Virus record (IMG/VR): IMGVR_UViG_3300045988_016945
Coordinates: 1-38,049 of that record
Strand: one strand, 5' to 3'
Length of the DNA: 38,049 bases
Source of the DNA: a virus
Below are positions 1,425-37,787 of the stretch, piece by piece (the first letter of the stretch is position 1; the number at the start of each line of letters is the position of its first letter). Position numbers and translations under genes: made by a program. The notes under the pieces were generated by a model, which searched no databases, had not been told where the DNA came from, and worked only from the letters and a program-made list of their open reading frames with translations.

Positions 1425-2467
1425 CATTATCTTAAAAGCACGTCTCTCCTCAAAACAATTTCTTGGATTGACTGTATAACGTGCTCCCTCTTTTATGAGC
1501 TTACGCTTTCACGTAAGATGAGACTATATCTTCGTTTTGTGACATTCTTCGAATTCTATATATTTTAAGTTGGCATTATTTTCTTTATTGTATTTTTTTA
1601 TCGCTTCAATTCTGGCTTTGTATGCTTCTTCTGGAGTTGAGAAAGTTCCAACTTGGATATGTTTTCTATTTACACAAAAATAAGACGAATACCGACCAGC
1701 CTTGCTAGTATTTTCACTAACGCCGGTGTAACCAGTTTTATTTTTGTAAACACCTCTATTATTGCAGTTTTCTTGAGGTAGAGCCCATCTGCAATTTTCT
1801 TTGCAGTAGTTCCCATTATTGTCTATTCTGTCCAGTTGATGCTTGCTAGAAGGCGGTTCTCCCATGTCTTTATAGAACTGGGAGAAGTCTTCCCATTCAT
1901 CAGCATAAGTTATACCACGGCCGCCGTATCGGTGAAAACTTGAATAGTTTGGATTTGTGCATCTTTGTCGCATCGCTTTCCAAGCGCTATGGGTTTTCGT
2001 TCCAGTCAGCCCGTGCTTTTTCAGTCTTTCTTTGTTTTTGAGTTTTGAAAGACACCCACAAGATTTTGAATATCCGTTCCTTACTTCGGTTATCCTCATT
2101 TCTTTTTCATTTCCGCACAAAGTACATTTGAATATCCCAAGTTTCTTCCCGTTTTTATCTTTGCCAGATATTTTTAGCAATTTTAAATAATTGAAAGTAA
2201 CGCCAATCTCTTTATTTTCAATCGTCTGCATGGGTTAGCCCTCCTTTGTCGTCTAACTCCATTATACCACAAACGTCCCGTGCTGTCTTGCGATTGCAAG
2301 CACTTAGTCGTTGAACCTTCCTCCTCTTTTACCAAGGAGGCTCGGCTGCTGATTGCCCAACTATGAATGTTTTTAAGCGTGTCACGTTTACCGTTACCGG
2401 TTGCGTTGTAGCCTTCATAGCTTCAGGGTGTCCCAGCAATTCTCGGGATTAGGAACCCAGTTTGTTA
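1425..2467 (-). mobile_element. Group I self-splicing intron (1043 nt) interrupting the endolysin gene
   Basis: The 5' exon ends in U and the intron ends in G (plus-strand c1425). P1 pairs exon GGAACU with intron GGUUCC (2452-2457), giving a U:G at the splice site. The core elements are P AAUUGCUGGGA (2431-2443), Q AAUCAGCAGCC (2344-2355), R GGUUCAACGACUAAG (2303-2317) and S AAGAUAUAGUCU (1521-1532). GACUA pairs with UAGUC to form P7. Confidence 0.85.
1524..2231 (-). CDS. Intron-encoded HNH homing endonuclease with AP2-like DNA-binding domain
   Basis: HNH motif HQLDRIDNNGNYCKENCRWALPQENCNN, and an AP2-like YTGVS...RKHIQVGTFSTPEEAYKARIEAIKKYN. The RBS is AAAGGAGGG 7 nt upstream. The stop codon lies inside the intron S element. 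Confidence 0.85.
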   Translation of the reverse strand: MQTIENKEIGVTFNYLKLLKISGKDKNGKKLGIFKCTLCGNEKEMRITEVRNGYSKSCGCLSKLKNKERLKKHGLTGTKTHSAWKAMRQRCTNPNYSSFHRYGGRGITYADEWEDFSQFYKDMGEPPSSKHQLDRIDNNGNYCKENCRWALPQENCNNRGVYKNKTGYTGVSENTSKAGRYSSYFCVNRKHIQVGTFSTPEEAYKARIEAIKKYNKENNANLKYIEFEECHKTKI

Positions 2468-2554
2468 AGTTCCCCAACTTCCATCTGCATCAGTACCGAC
2501 ACCAGCGTTAGCTAGGTCTTCTGCAAATTGAATGATGTCGTTATTCATTACCAT
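2468..2554 (-). CDS. Endolysin exon 1 (29 codons, MVMNNDIIQFAEDLANAGVGTDADGSWGT)
   Basis: RBS GAAAGAAGG lies 8 nt upstream of the ATG at 2554. The frame hits TAA immediately after ...SWGT, and that TAA is the first triplet of the intron. Joined to exon 2 it gives DGSWGT-QCVDL, a typical CHAP N-terminal motif. Confidence 0.8.
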
Positions 2555-2623: not shown

Positions 2624-2887
2624 TTAATCTTCGTTAGGCTCTTCATATCCGAGCGCACGAGTTGAGTCGCCCAATCCAGTAGTGGTTGGGTCGTTTACCA
2701 CTCCGACAAGCACAAGAGAGGCAAAGAGTACATTGATAAAAACCAAGATTTTATCAATTGTTTGTCCAAATTCCAATTTGACACCAAAGATATCAGCGAA
2801 TGCTTGGAAAAGCAATGCCAAAGCTGGCACTACTGCCAACCAAAAGTTTTTATTTTTTAAACGCACAGACCAGTTAATTTTATTCAT
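2624..2887 (-). CDS. Holin (two-TMD, phage_holin_1/LL-H-like)
   Basis: MNKINWSVRLKNKNFWLAVVPALALLFQAF...VVNDPTTTGLGDSTRALGYEEP. The ATG overlaps the upstream stop (TGATG). The longer tracked ORF start is an Arg-rich extension with no support. Confidence 0.85.
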   Translation of the reverse strand: MNKINWSVRLKNKNFWLAVVPALALLFQAFADIFGVKLEFGQTIDKILVFINVLFASLVLVGVVNDPTTTGLGDSTRALGYEEPNED

Positions 2888-3531
2888 CAGTTGATTTTTC
2901 CTTTCAATTCTTCGATTTCTTTTTTTAATTCTATTATTGTATCGACCAAGCGCTGGAAGTGCCCGTCGTCGTCTACATACCACAAGCCTTGTTGCTTGGA
3001 ATCGCCAAACGTGCGAGCAAATAACCTACGTTCATTGCCCTCCGCTTTGTTCCTTCGTTCGTTATACGAGTCCCAGATATCTTCTTGCATAGGAGGTAAT
3101 TCAAAGCCTAGCAAGTTCTCGACAGTGATTGAATTAATCCACTCGTAATCACCAATCCAAGCAGCTTCTTTGGTTTCTGGGTCAATATAGAAGGGTGGAT
3201 TATCTAAACCGTATAGATTAATACTGCCATCTCCTTTATTTTTAAAAAAATAAAATGGCAAGTTTGTATTCGGAGTCCCGACATCGCCCGTTGCCTCTTC
3301 CAATTCCTTCCAAACGTGTGGTTTATCTGGACCATAGTTAGACCACGAGCTCGAATCTTTAAACCATTTCAAGCTCTTTAAATCGTTGATATCCTGCTTG
3401 ATTTGAGTCATGTCAACGCTACCATCTGAGGTTGTGTTTAGACCATCAACCTTTTTTTCAATCGCATCAGTTCGCTTAAATAGCTCTTTAATATCTCGAC
3501 CGATGCTTCTAATTGTCTCTACAAGATTCAT
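2887..3531 (-). CDS. Hypothetical protein, 214 aa (coiled-coil ends, globular centre; possible fibre or adhesion component)
   Basis: The ATG at 3531 overlaps the upstream stop (TGATG), and the RBS is AAGAGGA. No motif is recognised. Confidence 0.7.
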   Translation of the reverse strand: MNLVETIRSIGRDIKELFKRTDAIEKKVDGLNTTSDGSVDMTQIKQDINDLKSLKWFKDSSSWSNYGPDKPHVWKELEEATGDVGTPNTNLPFYFFKNKGDGSINLYGLDNPPFYIDPETKEAAWIGDYEWINSITVENLLGFELPPMQEDIWDSYNERRNKAEGNERRLFARTFGDSKQQGLWYVDDDGHFQRLVDTIIELKKEIEELKGKIN

Positions 3532-3860
3532 CACTGTTCCTCTTTTGCTTGATTATATGCAGATAGATAATCTACATCAGTCACAGCGTCAATCTTTTGA
3601 CCAAGTTCTGTCAACTTAGCTACGATTGCTTCGCTGGTATCGTTGTTTAGAGTACCAATCTTATCTGTGATCTCTTTGAGCGTGTCAAGATTCTCTGGAA
3701 CTCCTTCACCGAGAATCTCTGCTTTTAGCTGCTTGATCGCCCCGTTTAGTTGCTGTTCAGTGATCCCTGCGCTTGTTTCCTTGTCATTGATTGCTTTACG
3801 CAAGTTCTTGATATCTGTACCAATCGCAACGACTACCGCTTCAAGTTTATTTTCTGCCAT
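3531..3860 (-). CDS. Hypothetical tail-fibre-like coiled-coil protein, 109 aa
   Basis: RBS AAAGGA. It contains GVPENLDTLKEI, which resembles the xPExLDTLxEL motif common in phage fibre N-termini. Confidence 0.7.
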   Translation of the reverse strand: MAENKLEAVVVAIGTDIKNLRKAINDKETSAGITEQQLNGAIKQLKAEILGEGVPENLDTLKEITDKIGTLNNDTSEAIVAKLTELGQKIDAVTDVDYLSAYNQAKEEQ

Positions 3861-4738: not shown

Positions 4739-5337
4739 TACCCCTCCTTCGGTTTGAATAGCCATGCAGTTGCAATCCCATTGTTTTCTAACTTGCCACC
4801 TTTTGCGAAATCAGCGAATGGCTGATTTTCGTAAGTGAAAGAACCATTAACTTGGATAAGTACCAGTTTGCCTTCTCCATCCACTTCTTCGTGGTTCGGG
4901 TCTTCGATAGCGAAGATATCCCCGGCGTTGAATACATCGCCTTTTTTAGCGACTGGCAACAATTCCAAATATTGCTTGTAGATTGTGCCATACTGGATAT
5001 TCTGACTCATTACCGCATTGAGGATGGACACGTTGGCAATTTTACGAGTCAATTCGCCTTGTTCAGCGACTTTCTCAGCTAAATTCAAGCGGTTGTCAAG
5101 GTCTTTAATAGATTCTTCTGACTTGGCTTGATAGCGTGCCAATGCCCCTGCAGGGTCCAGCTCAGTCGCTAAGATATCCAGAATAAGCTGAATTTTAGCT
5201 TCATCCGTCTTGCTTGTGTGGTCGCCTGGAACGTCTCGTGTCAACCACGTCGAGCCATCTTTGGACTGGATGGCAATCCGTGTTGTTGTTGGATTGGTCA
5301 GATAACTCGATGTAACACTGAAATTAGACTTATTCAT
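4738..5337 (-). CDS. Hypothetical protein, 199 aa (conserved streptococcal-phage post-fibre protein, DUF1366-like from memory)
   Basis: RBS AAAGGAG. The start overlaps the upstream ORF end (ATGAATAA). Confidence 0.75.
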   Translation of the reverse strand: MNKSNFSVTSSYLTNPTTTRIAIQSKDGSTWLTRDVPGDHTSKTDEAKIQLILDILATELDPAGALARYQAKSEESIKDLDNRLNLAEKVAEQGELTRKIANVSILNAVMSQNIQYGTIYKQYLELLPVAKKGDVFNAGDIFAIEDPNHEEVDGEGKLVLIQVNGSFTYENQPFADFAKGGKLENNGIATAWLFKPKEG

Positions 5338-21433: not shown

Positions 21434-22714
21434 CTATCTCCTTATCAGTTTGTTAACCCGTCTTATCTTAGCGTCTACGTCCTGTCTATCTTTGACAAAA
21501 ATAAGGTTTTGTAACGCATATCTAATAGCGTCGATACAGTGGTTATAACTATCACACGGCTTGTTGATATACTCGTTTGTATGTTTATCTTTCTGCCATG
21601 TATAGTTCTCAAGCTCCTCAATCGTCTTGACGCATCTCTCATCGACAATGATGTCGAATTGCTGCAAGAACTGAATCCCTTGAAGAACTGAGCCTTTTCC
21701 CTTATCTACTGGAATAGCTCGACGCAAGCCTAGTGTTTGAAGTTCAGCAATAGACTTCTGCTCCGCTGAGTCGGCCATAAGCACCTCTTTTGAATAGCCA
21801 AGGCTAGTGATAGCTTCTGCTATCTGGTTGTTAAGCAGCCCCTTCTTAACGTATTCCTCAAGGATGTATAGCCGCTTGTTCTCTCGGTCTATTTTGACGT
21901 GCACAAATGCTGTGGGGTCGTTAGTGAAACCAAAGTCAAGACCAAAAAAGGACGGTAACTGTTTAAGCTCGTCCTTGTTAAGTAATCTCTTTTCGTATTT
22001 TGGAAAAACTAGTTTGTCGAGCGTTGCGAATTCACCCAAAGCATATATTTTGTAGTAGGCTTCGTTTCGATTTGCTAACTCCTCGATATTCTCCTTGGTC
22101 AAGTCGTCCAGGAACCGATTATCCTTGTACGTTGTTTGGTAAACCACTGTATTCTTAGGGTTCTTCACAAAGAACGCATTATATACCCAATTAGCTTTAG
22201 AAACAGGGTTAAACATCAAATAGATTTGTTTCTGCTTGTGTGCTTTATCCCTCAAACGAAGTGTCAGCTGTGTATAATCGTCAAGCGTAAACTCTGACGC
22301 TTCTTCCATAACCACGTCAGAAATGCCTTTGATAGACTTGATTTTCTCTGGGTTATCCATTCCTTTGAAAATCAGCTCAGCTCCGTTTGGTAATTCAATA
22401 CGGAATGCGCTCATGTTAACCTTGCATAGATTAAGCACACCGAAATAAGACAAGGCTGCTTGAACGTCCGCAAATACCGAGTCACGAACAGTGGAACCTA
22501 CTTTTCGCAATATCAATATCTTTCGGGGTTTGTCCCACTTTTTAAGAGCTTTGAGGACTATCTTCTGAAAAACCCCGTGGCTCTTTCCGCTTGACGCTCC
22601 ACCGTAATGTACCTCAGTGAACGTGTCATAATCAAACAAATGGTCATAGATATGCCGATTAAACACCTTGCTTGGATTGATATCAAGATTAATCGTCATT
22701 CCATTCACCGACAT
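21434..22714 (-). CDS. terL: Terminase large subunit (PBSX-type)
   Basis: Walker A YGGASSGKSHGV, Walker B-like DVVMEEASE and a C-terminal nuclease region. Confidence 0.9.
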   Translation of the reverse strand: MSVNGMTINLDINPSKVFNRHIYDHLFDYDTFTEVHYGGASSGKSHGVFQKIVLKALKKWDKPRKILILRKVGSTVRDSVFADVQAALSYFGVLNLCKVNMSAFRIELPNGAELIFKGMDNPEKIKSIKGISDVVMEEASEFTLDDYTQLTLRLRDKAHKQKQIYLMFNPVSKANWVYNAFFVKNPKNTVVYQTTYKDNRFLDDLTKENIEELANRNEAYYKIYALGEFATLDKLVFPKYEKRLLNKDELKQLPSFFGLDFGFTNDPTAFVHVKIDRENKRLYILEEYVKKGLLNNQIAEAITSLGYSKEVLMADSAEQKSIAELQTLGLRRAIPVDKGKGSVLQGIQFLQQFDIIVDERCVKTIEELENYTWQKDKHTNEYINKPCDSYNHCIDAIRYALQNLIFVKDRQDVDAKIRRVNKLIRR

Positions 22715-23132
22715 TAATATTGATATCTTGCGTTACATCGGCTTCGACCTTGTCTGTCCACATTCTATACCGTTTACCGATATCGACCGCCGCAGCTCGA
22801 CGGGTAGCAACGTTCGGCTTAGCTTGAGCAATGCGCTGCATACCTTCGCCATCGAGGACAAGCAGGGGTTCTTCAACTTCTCCGCGCATGACAGCAGTGA
22901 GAAATTCCATGACCTCTTGTTGATCCGCAACACGTTCCGACTTTAATTTTTCAAGCTGCTCGTCTATATAAGCCTTGATGTTAGCTTTGGCAAGCAGTCT
23001 GCTTCCGTTAGCTTTCGCAACATCATTGTTCTTAATATTAGGATAAGCCTTCTTATACGCTTGCGAAGCATTTAGGCTGATGATGTACTCATCGGCAAAC
23101 TTCATTTGTTTCTCGGTCATCCCATTTTCCAT
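22689..23132 (-). CDS. terS: Terminase small subunit
   Basis: MTEKQMKFADEYIISLNASQAYKKAYP is a Terminase_4-type N-terminus. It overlaps the terL start. Confidence 0.85.
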   Translation of the reverse strand: MENGMTEKQMKFADEYIISLNASQAYKKAYPNIKNNDVAKANGSRLLAKANIKAYIDEQLEKLKSERVADQQEVMEFLTAVMRGEVEEPLLVLDGEGMQRIAQAKPNVATRRAAAVDIGKRYRMWTDKVEADVTQDININVGEWNDD

Positions 23133-23260
23133 CAACTCCTTTCTGATACTGAAAAAGACAACCCACAAAGTGAGCTGTCTCTGATTTTCTTCGATAATAT
23201 AATAATACCACTTTAAACAGTTGTAAGATACCGTGCTTTATCCGTCAAAATACCGTCATT

Positions 23261-23677
23261 TCAACATTCTACAACTAATTTGCCATCTCTATACAATTCA
23301 GCAAATGCTAGGATAGCATTATTTAGCAGTTCTTGAAACGTTGTTCTCTCAAAGCCGATTCCTTGGGCGATTTGCCAGTTTGGTTTAGGTGGATAAGCTA
23401 GATATTTCTCTATCAAGATTCTGCGATAATCTGGACGATATAGCCCGCTAACTGCTTGCTCTATGGCTTCTAGCTCGTTCATTGCATCAACCCGCCTTAC
23501 TGCAATATTCTCCACAGGTCTACTTACTCCACTGCCACCTCTGGGCATAAATGTGAATTCCTGTGTTATTTTCTGCTCAGCGCTATCGTGTGCAATCTCT
23601 CGCCAGCGTGGATATTCTCGAAGTTTGCGCTTGCAACGTTTGATTGTTGCTTTTTCATCAATTTCCGGCAATAGCAT
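23261..23677 (-). CDS. arpU: ArpU-family late transcriptional regulator
   Basis: MLLPEIDEKATIKRCKRKLREYPRWREIA...ILIEKYL is ArpU-like. The internal ATG at 23677 is preferred; the 54-codon upstream extension looks non-coding. Confidence 0.75.
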   Translation of the reverse strand: MLLPEIDEKATIKRCKRKLREYPRWREIAHDSAEQKITQEFTFMPRGGSGVSRPVENIAVRRVDAMNELEAIEQAVSGLYRPDYRRILIEKYLAYPPKPNWQIAQGIGFERTTFQELLNNAILAFAELYRDGKLVVEC

Positions 23678-24032
23678 TGTTCTGCCCTCTCTGGTATAAT
23701 AGTAGTGTTGACTTTCAGAAAGTGCCGGCCATTGTGTCGGTCTTTTTTTATTTTTATCCGGCTCAAGTATTAAGAGATATGAAAAGATTGAGTTTGTGAG
23801 CCTTGGTGTCACCTCCTTCCTAGCCATCGACACCAGCAAGGTCTTTGGCTTTGTTTTTGTAACGCAATGATATCAATAAGAAAGAGGCTTTTTTCACATC
23901 CTTTTTTCTTAAATTTGCTGGGTTTTGTTTGGACAAGGTCTGTCAGCTTGTCCGGTGTTGAAAAAGTGTTAAAAAGTGTCCAAGTCACTAAAAATCTTTA
24001 TTCATTTTTTATTTTTAGTGATGACAGACAAT

Positions 24033-24075
24033 GACTGGCAAGAGGAATCGAACCTCTTATACAACCATTCCAGCC
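24033..24075 (-). ncRNA. tRNA-like minihelix B (acceptor-like stem plus T-arm, no D or anticodon arms)
   Basis: Minus strand GGCTGG-AATGGTTGTAT-AAGAGG-TTCGATT-CCTCTT-G-CCAGTC. The T-loop TTCGATT is canonical. Confidence 0.4.
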
Positions 24076-24095
24076 TGCGATATAGAAATCATCTT

Positions 24096-24116
24096 GGAGG
24101 TTTTCCTCCTTTTTTT
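24096..24116 (+). terminator. Plus-strand rho-independent terminator inside minus-strand territory
   Basis: GGAGG-tttt-CCTCC followed by TTTTTTT on the plus strand. Confidence 0.55.
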
Positions 24117-24371
24117 GAAATAATACAAGAATAAAGTAGTGTGAATTATGGAGATTTCTGACCTATATCTAATTAAGTGTGCAGGCATAAAGCCTTGAAT
24201 AATCACGCCACCAGCAATGCGCTTTAGATTGGTAAACGAAATAAAAAAGGTTCCTCGATTCTAATTGTTTATTTACTGGATTTGGTTGCATCCACGACCA
24301 GTCACGCTTCAGCGATTTGAATGAAAAAATACAAAAGGATTCCTCTTTTCCGTATATAGATTGACTGGTAA

Positions 24372-24413
24372 TAGCTAGCAAGGGAGTCGAACCCTCATAA
24401 ACCGTTCTAGCTA
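24372..24413 (-). ncRNA. tRNA-like minihelix A (paralogue of B)
   Basis: Minus strand TAGCTAG-AACGGTTTAT-GAGGG-TTCGACT-CCCTT-G-CTAGCTA. The 5' stem strand includes the TAG stop codon of the upstream ORF. Confidence 0.4.
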
Positions 24414-25121
24414 CACGCCTAACGCATAGGCTGTATAAAGAGCTTTTCTGACCGTGGTCTTCTCACGTCCTACCCTGCCTTTGTTACGATATTCTAGGGT
24501 TATGCGATCAACTTCATCGTCCAACCTCTCGCTCCATTCATAGTTATTAAATACATAATCAATAATCTCACTAAATAACCCTCTCGAAAGTAGCCCTTCC
24601 ATTTGAATAGCTTTCAAAGGCGTTAGAGCAGCTTTTTCCGCATAGCACACATTAAGGGCGTTTTGGGTTCTGTTAGCATTTTTCTGGTCGCAGTCCTTAA
24701 CGTCTCTAATATAGTTGTTTAGGTTGTTAGGGTGTTCCTTGCGTAGTTCTTCCACTTCCTCTTGAAATCGCTTAAACAAGTTTTCTGGCAGTCCTGCGTT
24801 GATTTTATCCAAAACCGGTTTAGTGGTTTTCCCTCTTGTATAGTGCGTAGACAGATAGTCTTGGAGGTCGTCGAACAGTTCATCAGAAATGATGCCTTCT
24901 AGTCTGTCGACAGTCGCTGGCGATATCCTCGCACGCTCAACAACCGCACTGTTAAACGCTTGATAAATGATGCGGGCTTGCAATTCACTGCATTGTTTCA
25001 CATCTTGGAAAAACTGCTTATAAGAGCCCTTTTGGTGTGCTTTTCTAAGCTCTGCATGTTCATCAACCAGTCTCTGATACAGCTCTGGTGTCAGTCCGGA
25101 ATGTTTGTATTTCACGCTCAT
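24411..25121 (-). CDS. Hypothetical protein with an internal two-fold domain duplication, 236 aa
   Basis: ATGA overlap with the yopX stop. The two halves align: LTPELYQRLVDEHAELRKAHQKGSYKQFFQDVKQC against LPENLFKRFQEEVEELRKEHPNNLNNYIRDVKDC. Confidence 0.75.
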   Translation of the reverse strand: MSVKYKHSGLTPELYQRLVDEHAELRKAHQKGSYKQFFQDVKQCSELQARIIYQAFNSAVVERARISPATVDRLEGIISDELFDDLQDYLSTHYTRGKTTKPVLDKINAGLPENLFKRFQEEVEELRKEHPNNLNNYIRDVKDCDQKNANRTQNALNVCYAEKAALTPLKAIQMEGLLSRGLFSEIIDYVFNNYEWSERLDDEVDRITLEYRNKGRVGREKTTVRKALYTAYALGV

Positions 25122-25504
25122 GAGCTTACCTCTGCCAGCTTTGGATGTTCCCATGTATTTCCGATAATTTTCCTTGAGCTGGCAACATTGCATAAACGTT
25201 CGAAGTTGTTATACTCTACCAAATCACTAACGAACATCCCTAAACTTACTCTAAATTCAATTACGCCAGTAAGGAATCCGTCTGTCGAGTCAATAATGTC
25301 CCCCTCGAAGATTTCTCTATCGTTTTTGTCTCTCATTCCAGTTGATTGCATTAAAACGATATCGTCGAAATTGTAGCGGTTCGTCTGGTCGAAAAAGAGT
25401 GTTTTAACGCCAATTTCGCTTTTCCCAAAATCAATAGACATAATATCATCAACTTCGTACATTATTTTATGAATTTTATCCCATGCTCTATATCTTGGTA
25501 TCAT
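25118..25504 (-). CDS. YopX-family protein
   Basis: MIPRYRAWDK...LMQSTGMRDKNDREIFEGDII...IIGNTWEHPKL. Confidence 0.8.
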   Translation of the reverse strand: MIPRYRAWDKIHKIMYEVDDIMSIDFGKSEIGVKTLFFDQTNRYNFDDIVLMQSTGMRDKNDREIFEGDIIDSTDGFLTGVIEFRVSLGMFVSDLVEYNNFERLCNVASSRKIIGNTWEHPKLAEVSS

Positions 25505-36481: not shown

Positions 36482-36614
36482 AAAAAGCCCTATAATCTCC
36501 CTCGCCAAAGTTAGATTATAGAGCTTATGCATCACAGAAAAAATCATGTAAACTGAGAGCAGTCTTACAAGCCTTTTTCTGTACCCATTTTACCAAAATT
36601 AAGGAGTTATGACA

Positions 36615-37787
36615 ATGTGGGTAGAACAATTACCAAACGAGAAATATAAATATTTCGAAAGATACAAGGATCCTTACACTGAGAAATGGAAACGAGTGTC
36701 TGTAACGCTTAACAGTGCGTCTAATCGAGCAAAGAAAGAAGCTCAACGCTTGCTTGATGATAAGATAGCTGAGAAGATGTCTGGCTTAAACACTACCGAC
36801 GCATCATTTAACGATGTGTTGAACGAGTGGTGGGAATTTCACAAGAAAGGTATTCGAAGAACCTCGATTAGTTCCATGACTAGCAATGTCAGATATGTTG
36901 CAGAGAATTTCGCTGTAGATGTCAAAATAGCAAACATTGATACACACTATATCCAACGCTTTATTAATGATGCCGATATTCCACGTTCAATCCTTGAGCG
37001 TGTTAAATCTATATTGAATCTAACCTTCGATTACGCTTGCACCGTTGGTTATATTCCTAGCAATCCTGCAAGGCAAGCAAAACTTCCCAAGAAACAACAA
37101 ACGATGGAAGATTACGACAAGATAAGAAATAAGTTTCTAGAGATAGACACTGAACTACTACCACTTCTGGCAGAATTACGAAAACAGAAACGCACCTACA
37201 GAAACGCAATCCTTGCCGAGTTCCTTTTTGTTAGTGGTGCAAGGATTGGCGAAGCGGTAGCTCTTGAGACATGCAACTACAGGAGGGAGGATGGCTACCT
37301 TGATATTTTTGGCACTCTGGATAGCGTCCAGGGCTACAAGAGAGCGAAAAAGGAACCACCTAAAACGCCAGCCGGCTACCGTAGCAATAAGCTGACTAAA
37401 CGCGAAATAGAATTGCTGGATGAAGCTATACAGATTCGTGATCTAAACAAGTCGCTATCAGACGATTGGGTGGCCATGGATAGAGATTATATTTTTGTGA
37501 CCGACAAAGGAGTGCCACTTCAACGGAACTCCTTCAACAACTCTATTCAAGCTGCTAACAAGAGACTGGATAAGCCGATTAATAAACCAATATCATCTCA
37601 CATATTCAGACACACGCTGGTCAGCTATCTGGCTGAGAATGGCGTCCCATTAAAGGCCATTATGGACAGGGTTGGGCATGATGACAGTGATACCACGATG
37701 AAGATTTATACCCACGTCACCAACAAAATGAAAAATAAGGTGGTTGAAATCATTGATAACTTGCCCCTTTCTTGCCCCTTAGAATAA
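36615..37787 (+). CDS. int: Tyrosine integrase
   Basis: GARIGEA...HIFRHTLVSYLAENG...VGHDDSDTTMKIYTH gives the R..HxxR..Y catalytic pattern. The ATG at 36615 is preferred because of RBS spacing. Confidence 0.95.
   Translation: MWVEQLPNEKYKYFERYKDPYTEKWKRVSVTLNSASNRAKKEAQRLLDDKIAEKMSGLNTTDASFNDVLNEWWEFHKKGIRRTSISSMTSNVRYVAENFAVDVKIANIDTHYIQRFINDADIPRSILERVKSILNLTFDYACTVGYIPSNPARQAKLPKKQQTMEDYDKIRNKFLEIDTELLPLLAELRKQKRTYRNAILAEFLFVSGARIGEAVALETCNYRREDGYLDIFGTLDSVQGYKRAKKEPPKTPAGYRSNKLTKREIELLDEAIQIRDLNKSLSDDWVAMDRDYIFVTDKGVPLQRNSFNNSIQAANKRLDKPINKPISSHIFRHTLVSYLAENGVPLKAIMDRVGHDDSDTTMKIYTHVTNKMKNKVVEIIDNLPLSCPLE
37762..37781 (+). repeat. TTGCCCCTT-tc-TTGCCCCTT double 9-mer at the int 3' end
   Basis: The same pair recurs 216 bp downstream at 37978-37997, which is 48-67. 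Confidence 0.7.

What the first reader, a model, noticed from the sequence alone, without database searches (positions are those of the whole stretch)
24033..24413. Two paralogous tRNA-like acceptor/T-arm minihelices with compensatory stem changes at the early/late junction
On the minus strand, element A (24413 to 24372) reads TAGCTAG-AACGGTTTAT-GAGGG-TTCGACT-CCCTT-G-CTAGCTA. Element B (24075 to 24033) reads GGCTGG-AATGGTTGTAT-AAGAGG-TTCGATT-CCTCTT-G-CCAGTC. Both share the same architecture: an outer stem of 6-7 bp, a conserved 10-11-nt linker AA(C/U)GGUU(G)UAU, a T-arm with a canonical UUCGAnU loop, a single G, and the 3' strand of the outer stem. The outer stems differ completely in sequence yet both pair perfectly or with G:U, and the T-stems also differ while still pairing. 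That is covariation between paralogues. Neither element has D or anticodon arms, so they are not tRNA genes. A starts on the TAG stop codon of the last early ORF, and B lies about 300 nt downstream. Such minihelices are the minimal substrates of RNase P, RNase Z and the CCA-adding enzyme. A plausible but unproven role is a tRNA-like processing or stabilisation signal that punctuates the early transcript and releases the RNA of about 300 nt between them. The alternative is that they are relics of tRNA-type attachment sites.
Basis: partly seen in the sequence, partly recalled or inferred. Interest (0 to 1): 0.7.

Follow-up and report, generated by a model that had tools for sequence, protein, structure and literature searches.

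The report
Conserved tRNA-like hairpins in streptococcal phages
Two short RNA hairpins that copy the acceptor/T-arm half of a tRNA sit between the early genes and the late-gene activator of this Streptococcus phage; relatives occur in hundreds of streptococcal phages with compensating base changes, so they are selected RNA structures, but what they do is still unproven.

Summary
Elements A (24413..24372, minus) and B (24075..24033, minus) read as written. They are the only two GGTTCGANTCC sites in 38 kb, and no tRNA or Rfam family is called there. A covariance model finds the same fold once or twice per genome in relatives. About 89-91% of pair cells are paired, against 33-53% in slid controls. 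Seven of 13 pairs change on both sides, and G:U outnumbers A·C by 82 to 24, which points to the sense-strand RNA.

The A-to-B interval is an optional cassette: about 30 of 80 relatives have one minihelix followed directly by the sequence that follows B here. The att-relic idea fails. The integrase lies 12 kb away, and no full tRNA with A's 3' half turned up.

The minihelix marks the 5' edge of a modular structured leader of the ArpU-type late activator. Related phages carry true tRNAs, degenerate tRNA arrays or GOLLD RNA at the same junction.

My best guess, at about 0.4, is a tRNA-mimic processing or boundary signal for RNase P/Z. It may also toggle with a long-range pairing near the activator's ribosome-binding site. 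No such motif is in Rfam 15 or the papers searched.

The parts
24372..24413 (-). Minihelix A: outer stem UAGCUAG/CUAGCUA, linker AACGGUUUA(U), T-arm (U)GAGGG-UUCGACU-CCCUU(G). Its first three bases are the TAG stop of the DUF1340 gene.
   Evidence: 68 bits
24411..25193 (-). Last early gene (DUF1340, phrog_1814). Its stop codon lies in the 5' strand of minihelix A.
24297..24369 (-). Unit U1: long hairpin closed by ACCAGUCA/UGACUGGU, with an internal SD-like box GAAAAGAGGAA.
24211..24279 (-). Unit U2: the same design, CCAGUAA.../...UUGCUGG. The closing stem covaries among units (U:A, U:G, C:G).
24096..24116 (-). A-run followed by hairpin GGAGG-AAAA-CCUCC, which sequesters an AGGAGG box. On the + strand it reads as an intrinsic terminator. 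The stem covaries in a relative (GGGGA/UCCCC in SA-TP2).
24033..24075 (-). Minihelix B: outer stem GGCUGG/CCAGUC with a G:U pair, linker AAUGGUUGUA, T-arm UAAGAGG-UUCGAUU-CCUCUUG.
   Evidence: 49.7 bits
24022..24029 (-). Invariant box GUCUGUCA. It always follows the last minihelix after UU, and it is complementary to the loop of the hairpin at 23931-23953.
23986..24020 (-). A/U-rich hairpin CACUAAAAAU...AUUUUUAGUG. This segment varies among relatives.
23931..23953 (-). Hairpin GGACAAG-CUGACAGAC-CUUGUCC. The loop is invariant and the stem covaries strongly among relatives.
23833..23921 (-). Unit U3, CCAGCAA.../...UUGCUGG. This copy of the unit is present in most relatives that keep this leader.
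23724..23742 (-). Box GACCGACACAAUGGCCGGC, preceded by an A-run. It is complementary to the 3' strand of the last minihelix plus UU plus GUCUGUC. On the + strand it reads as an intrinsic terminator.
23687..23722 (-). Hairpin pairing an anti-SD (CUUUCUG) with the activator's SD (CAGAGAG); 98% paired in 25 diverse leaders.
23261..23677 (-). ArpU-type late transcriptional activator gene (phrog_248), followed by terS at 22689-23168.

Best explanation
A and B are tRNA-derived, or tRNA-mimicking, acceptor/T-arm minihelices made in the sense RNA. Each has a 12-14-bp coaxial helix capped by a canonical T-loop. The D stem, anticodon arm and variable region are replaced by a 9-11-nt linker that keeps a D-loop-like AAYGGU.

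Shown:
- The fold is under purifying selection in hundreds of streptococcal phages.
- It is specific to the sense strand.
- It always sits at the 5' edge of a modular, structured leader in front of the ArpU-type late activator gene.
- In single-copy genomes its 5' strand carries the stop codon of the last early gene.

Inferred: the host tRNA-end enzymes recognise it as a pre-tRNA-like helix. RNase P would cut on the 5' side, RNase Z after the helix at the conserved R-U-U, and CCA addition might follow. The cut would separate the early polycistronic mRNA from the activator leader. In genomes with the extra cassette it would also separate the cassette RNA. The early mRNA would gain a stable structured 3' end, and the downstream RNA a defined 5' end.

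The second copy in this window belongs to an optional tandem cassette (minihelix, then two hairpin units), not to a fixed pair of bookends.
For: - T-arm identity: G53, U54, U55, C56, R57, A58, U60 and C61 are nearly invariant, while the stems vary and compensate.
- Strand: 82 G:U cells against 24 A·C cells, so the fold favours the sense strand.
- Specificity: one or two model hits per phage contig in 0.9 Mb, always at this locus, and only two in the window.
- Helix length is kept at about 12-14 layers even where the linker is lost, as in TP-J34, 2972, L080 and L100.
- R-U-U follows the helix in S. salivarius, S. thermophilus and S. pyogenes versions, including those without the downstream GUCUGUCA box.
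- The slot around the ArpU gene holds true tRNAs (S. equinus Javan202 tRNA-Lys, Enterococcus phiFL1A tRNA-Asn), a degenerate tRNA array that includes family-type minihelices (S. pyogenes and S. agalactiae), or GOLLD RNA flanked by T-arm hairpins (S. pneumoniae IPP60).
- GOLLD and ROOL are known to lie next to tRNAs in prophages (PMC12286853, PMC5737381).
- The region separates the early class from the middle/late class in phage 2972 (PMC13575424).
- From established knowledge: acceptor/T-arm minihelices are sufficient substrates for RNase P, RNase Z and the CCA-adding enzyme, and B. subtilis RNase Z prefers a U after the discriminator.
Against: - There are no RNA-end or cleavage data.
- The stack is 13-14 bp rather than the canonical 12, and no CCA or fixed discriminator follows it.
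- Recombinant A/B chimeras with a weakened outer stem persist in nature.
- The linker is dispensable, and in B-type and S. pyogenes copies it can instead pair with the 3' strand. Its conservation may therefore not be D-loop mimicry.
- The 3' strand is also complementary to a distal box, which suggests a structural switch rather than, or in addition to, cleavage.
- A plain stabilising hairpin would explain the position, though not the T-loop.
Confidence: 0.4

Rival explanations
1. Conformational riboregulator of the late activator. The minihelix is one of two mutually exclusive folds. Its 3' strand plus UU-GUCUGUC can instead pair with the box GACCGACACAAUGGCCGGC, which lies 2 nt upstream of the anti-SD that masks the activator's ribosome-binding site. 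Whatever opens the minihelix would free the 3' strand and re-set activator translation, so timing the early-to-late switch. One candidate is a ribosome terminating on the stop codon inside its 5' strand; another is binding or cutting by a tRNA enzyme. This can coexist with processing.
For: - RNAalifold on 25 diverse leaders picks this 14-bp long-range helix and the SD/anti-SD hairpin, at 98-99% paired.
- Twelve distinct 3'-strand decamers, all R-Y-Y-N-G-Y-Y-R-U-U, give 87% paired cells with the nearly invariant box, against 9-57% in slid registers and 42% for shuffled decamers.
- The window duplex is -20.1 kcal/mol.
- The stop codon overlaps the 5' strand in S. salivarius, S. thermophilus and S. 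pyogenes versions.
Against: - The variation is one-sided and wobble-tolerated, with no two-sided compensation.
- The box and its A-run also read as an intrinsic terminator on the opposite strand, with G:U pairs valid only there. A second leader type has a different box built the same way.
- The A insertion before GUCUGUC does not associate with the box type.
- S. pyogenes copies lack GUCUGUCA and this box.
- A switch does not explain the strict T-loop sequence.
Confidence: 0.25
2. A decoy or binding site for a protein that binds tRNA T-arms, either host or phage. It would sequester or recruit that factor rather than be cut. Candidates are a tRNA-modifying enzyme, EF-Tu after CCA addition and charging, or a tRNA-targeting defence nuclease.
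For: - The T-loop is strictly conserved, which implies recognition by something that reads tRNA elbows or T-arms.
- Copy number varies, with one to two copies and arrays in pyogenic streptococcal prophages.
- Some B-type copies have a G:U pair near the helix end.
Against: - No partner is identified, and no defence or tRNA-enzyme gene is linked.
- DUF1340 has no informative match in the PDB.
- One or two copies per transcript is few for a sponge.
- The G:U position is not fixed as 3:70.
Confidence: 0.12
3. A DNA-level feature. The repeated T-arm core and the flanking inverted repeats (GUCUGUCA/UGACAGAC, and the 3' strand against the distal box) would be recombination or module-boundary sequences, or relics of a tRNA gene or att site, and the RNA fold would be incidental.
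For: - The A..B cassette is present or absent with breakpoints exactly at the minihelix 3' end, and A/B chimeras exist.
- True tRNA genes occupy the neighbouring slot in related phages, so an origin from a tRNA gene is likely.
Against: - Two-sided compensatory changes maintain the stems, and G:U exceeds A·C 3.4-fold, which points to one transcribed strand.
- The integrase and att end are about 12 kb away.
- No full tRNA with A's 3' half was found in the metagenome collection.
- ARAGORN finds no tRNA in 60 related loci.
Confidence: 0.08

Closest known systems
tRNA acceptor/T-psi-C minihelix (the minimal substrate of RNase P, RNase Z and the CCA-adding enzyme) and 'armless' tRNAs
   Same: A coaxial helix of about one turn, capped by a loop with the full tRNA T-loop consensus (GGUUCGAnUCC). 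The D stem and anticodon arm are absent. There is a D-loop-like GG in the connector.
   Different: It is natural and embedded in a phage mRNA or leader. The stack is 13-14 pairs rather than 12. No CCA or fixed discriminator follows. It cannot decode. Processing has not been shown.
tRNA-like domain of tmRNA
   Same: An acceptor stem plus T-arm, joined by a stemless D-loop-like strand.
   Different: There is no mRNA-like reading frame and no tmRNA-type pseudoknot domain or resume codon. The 5' and 3' strands are 10 nt apart rather than at the ends of a 350-nt RNA. ARAGORN finds nothing, and Rfam scores 6.8 bits against a cut-off of 47.
Viral and cellular tRNA-like processing signals: MHV68 tRNA-miRNA (TMER) units, MALAT1/mascRNA, mitochondrial tRNA punctuation, and RNase P-processed phage RNAs (P1/P7 C4, P4 CI)
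   Same: A tRNA-shaped module is placed directly next to other structured RNA units inside a longer transcript. The cassette layout here is a minihelix followed by hairpin units.
   Different: Those are eukaryotic or proteobacterial systems with mapped cleavage sites. This one is a Gram-positive siphophage leader with no end mapping and a much-reduced tRNA shape.
tRNA islands next to GOLLD and ROOL RNAs in prophages of Lactobacillales
   Same: The genomic niche is the same, around the ArpU/terS junction of temperate streptococcal phages. IPP60 has GOLLD there with T-arm hairpins nearby, and other relatives have true tRNAs there.
   Different: The window region gives no GOLLD or ROOL match. Its modules (minihelix, GUCUGUCA/loop pair, U units) are different and much smaller.
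tRNA-gene 3' halves in phage attP sites
   Same: Contains a T-arm plus the acceptor 3' strand.
   Different: It also carries its own paired 5' strand 10 nt upstream. It lies 12 kb from the integrase. It covaries. No matching full tRNA was found for A.

Membership tests
tRNA gene | Cloverleaf with a D arm and an anticodon arm, detectable by ARAGORN or Rfam RF00005 | tested here: not met
   ARAGORN finds 0 genes in the window and 0 in 60 related loci. There is no RF00005 match even at E<=10.
tRNA gene | T-arm consensus: G53, T54, T55, C56, R57, A58, Y60, C61 | tested here: met
   GGTTCGAnTCC in both elements. These columns are invariant or nearly so in 70 distinct relatives.
tRNA gene | A 7-bp acceptor plus 5-bp T stem (12 stacked pairs), followed by a discriminator and CCA | tested here: inconclusive
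   There are 13-14 stacked pairs. The helix is followed by (A)UU, not CCA. CCA-less tRNA genes do exist in Firmicutes (established knowledge).
tmRNA | A tRNA-like domain formed by the RNA's two ends, plus a tag reading frame and pseudoknots | tested here: not met
   ARAGORN finds no tmRNA. Rfam tmRNA scores 6.8 bits against a gathering score of 47, covering 13 nt of the T-arm only.
RNase P / RNase Z / CCA-enzyme minihelix substrate (functional class) | An acceptor-like helix stacked on a T-arm with a T-loop | tested here: met
RNase P / RNase Z / CCA-enzyme minihelix substrate (functional class) | Actual cleavage or CCA addition at the helix borders | not testable with these tools
   This needs RNA-end mapping or enzyme assays.
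attP / tRNA 3'-half relic | Lies next to the integrase at the prophage end | tested here: not met
   The integrase is at 36609-37787 on the + strand. The elements are at 24033-24413.
attP / tRNA 3'-half relic | Identical to the 3' half of a host tRNA gene | tested here: not met
   For A, the pattern for a full-length tRNA with the same T-arm and acceptor 3' strand gave one hit in the metagenome collection, and that hit is a phage copy without a tRNA. The genome scan was too loose to be informative.
Intrinsic terminator | A G+C-rich hairpin followed directly by a U-run on the transcribed strand | tested here: not met
   The scan finds no minus-strand terminator-like site in 23200-24600. UU-A/G follows the helices.
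Any Rfam 15 family, including GOLLD, ROOL and Y RNA-like | A covariance-model match at the gathering score | tested here: not met
   Only the group I intron at 2180-2510 passes in the window. Nothing passes in 23700-24700 at E<=10 apart from chance-level hits.

The most novel reading that the evidence does not exclude
The minihelix is the sensor arm of a previously undescribed phage riboregulator. It is a tRNA mimic whose 3' strand toggles between the tRNA-like fold and a long-range helix beside the anti-SD of the late-activator gene. The state of the host's translation or tRNA-processing machinery would then set the timing of the early-to-late switch. That state could be read through a ribosome stopping on the codon inside the helix, or through RNase P/Z or another T-arm reader acting on it. 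Extra minihelix-plus-hairpin cassettes would be released as small phage RNAs.
Probability: 0.2. Interest if true: 0.8.

Novelty: new variant of a known kind. Interest (0 to 1): 0.6.

Why it matters
Streptococcus thermophilus phages are the main phage problem of the dairy industry, and they are the model for CRISPR work. S. pyogenes and S. agalactiae prophages carry virulence genes. How these phages switch from early to late transcription upstream of the ArpU-type activator is not understood.

A strongly conserved, unannotated tRNA-mimic at exactly this junction gives a concrete and testable handle. The TP-J34-type region matches 328 phage records. The S. pyogenes-type minihelix region matches 72 records and the tRNA-like array 106. 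More than 180 viral contigs encode the neighbouring DUF1340 gene.

The element also links three things that share this genomic slot: true phage tRNAs, degenerate tRNA arrays, and the giant GOLLD RNA. It may therefore help explain why large phage RNAs sit beside tRNAs. If processing is confirmed, it would be a bacterial-virus counterpart of tRNA punctuation and of viral tRNA-linked small-RNA cassettes.

Tried and rejected
- Genome-collection scan with GGTTCGAYTCC-N3-4-GCYAGYYA. The pattern was too loose. It did yield one family-like element in S. caballi.
- Literature searches found no description of the motif. The TP-J34 paper does not discuss the stem-loops annotated in its GenBank record. 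The Sfi19 transcription-map paper is not held.
- Small ORFs behind the SD-like boxes and upstream of B are not conserved in frame between the window and SA-TP2 (read), so they were rejected as coding.
- The interiors of the U units do not fold better than shuffles. Only their closing stems are supported.
- I tested whether the extra A in UUAGUCUGUC goes with the type of distal box. It does not.
- The DUF1340 protein has no informative relative with a solved structure. I ran no further search on it.
- The AcrIIIA1 protein-RNA anti-CRISPR paper concerns host tRNA fragments in staphylococcal phage infection and is not relevant here.
- The weak Rfam hits (rimP leader, SdsR, CRISPR-DR63) are at chance level. 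The rimP hit merely reflects two hairpin-plus-U-run features on the + strand.

Full report
**What the window is**

The window is a complete temperate Streptococcus phage written in reverse. The integrase is at 36609-37787 on the + strand. The early genes run down the minus strand to a DUF1340 gene at 25193..24411. A non-coding stretch of about 730 nt follows. After it come an ArpU-type late transcriptional activator (23677..23261, phrog_248), terS, terL and the portal gene. The closest records are S. salivarius and S. thermophilus phages of the Brussowvirus type.

**Observation**

Both elements read exactly as reported. GGTTCGANTCC occurs only at these two places in the window, where 0.05 matches are expected. 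RNAfold gives the proposed fold, with 13-14 stacked pairs, but the single-sequence z-scores are unremarkable. ARAGORN and Rfam call nothing there. Element A starts on the TAG stop of the DUF1340 gene.

**Comparative evidence for the fold**

I fetched 80 viral contigs through the DUF1340 protein and 120 more through the pattern T-loop...GTCTGTCA. Nearly every one carries the element on the sense strand.

The stems change in a compensating way:
- A outer stem: UAGCUAG/CUAGCUA against UAGCCAG/CUGGCUG.
- A T stem: GAGGG/CCCUC against GACGG/CCGUC.
- B outer stem: GGCUGG/CCAGUC against GGCGGG/CCCGUC, GGCGAG/CUCGUC and GACGGG/CCCGUC.
- B T stem: AAGAGG/CCUCUU against CAUGGG/CCCGUG.

On 70 distinct sequences, 89% of pair cells are paired, against 33-53% when the partners are slid. 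There are 105 double-change cells against 34+-7 in shuffles (0 of 500 reach it), and 7 of 13 pairs change on both sides. A covariance model built from this alignment finds 125 hits in 0.9 Mb of phage contigs, one or two per contig. It finds only A (68 bits) and B (49.7 bits) in the window. G:U cells outnumber A·C cells 82 to 24, so the fold belongs to the sense strand. The T-loop and the G53:C61 pair are essentially invariant.

**Variants**

- The linker keeps AAYGGU in most copies, but it is missing in some. Examples are L080, L100, and the TP-J34 and 2972 types. In those the element is a continuous or lightly interrupted helix of about 12-13 layers.
- In B-type and S. pyogenes copies the linker can instead pair with the 3' strand plus AUU. 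Its conservation could therefore reflect either D-loop mimicry or an alternative helix.

**The pair is not a fixed pair**

In about 30 of 80 close relatives a single minihelix, with A's 5' side, is followed directly by UU-GUCUGUCA, which follows B in this window. The interval between A and B varies from 214 to 362 nt and contains one or two repeat units. Some genomes have two complete modules. A/B chimeras show recombination across the T-loop. So 'two bookends releasing a 300-nt RNA' describes an optional cassette, not the conserved core.

**The conserved core**

The core is a modular leader with these parts, in order:
- The minihelix.
- UU-GUCUGUCA.
- A hairpin 30-100 nt later, whose stem covaries freely (GGACAAG/CUUGUCC, GAGCAAG/CUUGCUC, GUCGAG/CUCGAC, GCAUCG/CGAUGC) and whose invariant loop CUGACAGAC is complementary to GUCUGUCA.
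- A unit closed by CCAGYMA/UKRCUGG, which has U:A, U:G and C:G variants and contains an SD-like AGAAAAGAGGAA box.
- A box GACCGACACAAUGGCCGGC.
- An anti-SD/SD hairpin over the activator's ribosome-binding site.

The 3' strand of the last minihelix plus UU-GUCUGUC is complementary to that box. Across 12 distinct decamers, 87% of cells pair, against 9-57% in slid registers and 42% for shuffled decamers. The duplex in the window is -20.1 kcal/mol. This pairing would compete with the minihelix.

There is a complication. The same box and its A-run read as an intrinsic terminator on the opposite strand. A second leader type has a different box built the same way. I therefore leave this as unexplained.

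**Breadth**

- The TP-J34-type region matches 328 Streptococcus phage records, across cos-type, pac-type and 987-group S. thermophilus phages.
- In phage 2972 the region lies between early ORF44 and ORF1, the activator gene. This is the border between the early class and the middle/late class (PMC13575424).
- ArpU relatives occur in many streptococcal and enterococcal phages.
- In S. pyogenes Javan454 a family-type minihelix, with linker UAACGGU, again begins at the stop codon of the gene upstream of ArpU. It is again followed by an SD-like UAGAAACGAGGA. Between ArpU and terS there is an array of four tRNA-like elements. One of these is a minihelix with an AAUGGU linker, and one just passes the Rfam tRNA cut-off at 30.7 bits.
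- The two S. pyogenes regions match 72 records (the minihelix region upstream of ArpU) and 106 records (the array); most matches lie on stretches with no annotated feature.
- S. equinus Javan202 has a true tRNA-Lys in the slot downstream of ArpU, and Enterococcus phiFL1A a true tRNA-Asn. S. pneumoniae IPP60 has a GOLLD RNA there (281 bits) with T-arm hairpins nearby.
- GOLLD and ROOL are known to sit near tRNAs in prophages, and tRNAs are sometimes found inside the GOLLD linker (PMC12286853, PMC5737381).

The minihelix thus looks like the reduced end of a series that runs from true tRNA, through degenerate tRNA, to acceptor/T-arm minihelix, all kept at the same junction.

**The att-relic alternative**

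This fails on three counts. The elements are about 12 kb from the integrase. They are selected for pairing. A metagenome-wide pattern for a full-length tRNA with A's T-arm and acceptor 3' strand returned only one phage copy. B could not be tested in the same way.

**Mechanism**

What is shown: a selected, sense-strand, tRNA-like RNA structure sits at the boundary between the early operon and the activator leader.

What is inferred, at about 0.4: it is read by the tRNA-end machinery, RNase P and/or RNase Z, as a processing or boundary signal. The basis is the strict T-loop, the conserved helix length, the conserved R-U-U after the helix even where the downstream boxes are absent, and the presence of real tRNAs and tRNA-flanked large RNAs in the same niche.

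A structural-switch role in activator translation, at about 0.25, is compatible with this and would be the more novel outcome. A decoy role, or a purely DNA-level role, is less likely.

**Novelty**

No match exists in Rfam 15, and the papers searched contain no description. The TP-J34 GenBank record merely marks 'stem_loop' features there. I class this as a new variant of a known kind, namely tRNA-like structures and minihelices used by viruses. Interest is moderate to high because the element is so widespread in well-studied phages and is directly testable.

Noticed in passing
window 2180-2510 (-): A group I intron (Rfam RF00028, 50.4 bits) lies between ORFs 2887-3534 and 1524-2231. From my own knowledge, this is the known lysin-gene intron of S. 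thermophilus-type phages.
   Followed up: no
window 24096-24116 and 23724-23750 (+ strand reading): There are two hairpin-plus-T-run sites on the strand opposite to all genes. Both are conserved among relatives together with their A-runs, with stem changes and with G:U pairs valid only on the + strand. They could terminate antisense RNAs, one covering the activator's 5' region and one covering minihelix B. The only + strand promoter-like site nearby is weak (23268-23297).
   Followed up: partly
L327 (S. pyogenes prophage Javan454) 2066-2512; also L331 (S. agalactiae Javan53) 2088-2400: An unannotated array of about 450 nt lies between the ArpU gene and terS. It holds four tRNA-like elements: a three-way junction with a T-arm, a family-type minihelix, a lone T-arm hairpin, and a degenerate tRNA that scores 30.7 bits. 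The region matches 106 streptococcal phage records.
   Followed up: partly
L330 (S. pneumoniae phage IPP60) 2722-3114: A GOLLD RNA (Rfam 281 bits) sits in the 1.35-kb gap between the ArpU gene and terS, with T-arm-like hairpins at about 2137, 2297 and 3173.
   Followed up: partly
L268 (S. caballi DSM 19004 contig) 5084-5131: A family-like minihelix (25 bits) lies in the 5' untranslated region of a cro/XRE-like gene, in a divergent switch region. It is followed by AAAUAUUUUAGAAAGAGG, which here is the real ribosome-binding site. The element is therefore not tied to DUF1340 or ArpU.
   Followed up: no
L006, L159, L166 and similar loci: These are chimeric minihelices with A's 5' strand and B's T-arm and/or 3' strand. 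They are evidence of deletion by recombination between the two copies. Their outer stems pair only partly.
   Followed up: partly
L323/L324 (phage 2972, NC_007019) record ends: The record is cut inside the first, degenerate, T-loop hairpin (...GGGCTTGTAGT | GGTTCGAAAATTAC...). The element at the DUF1340 stop codon is therefore split across the ends of the deposited sequence and is easy to miss.
   Followed up: no
window 24297-24369, 24211-24279, 23833-23921 (-): Three copies of a 70-90-nt unit share a covarying closing stem and an internal Shine-Dalgarno-like box that is not followed by a conserved ORF. The box could act as a 5' stabiliser or as a ribosome decoy.
   Followed up: partly
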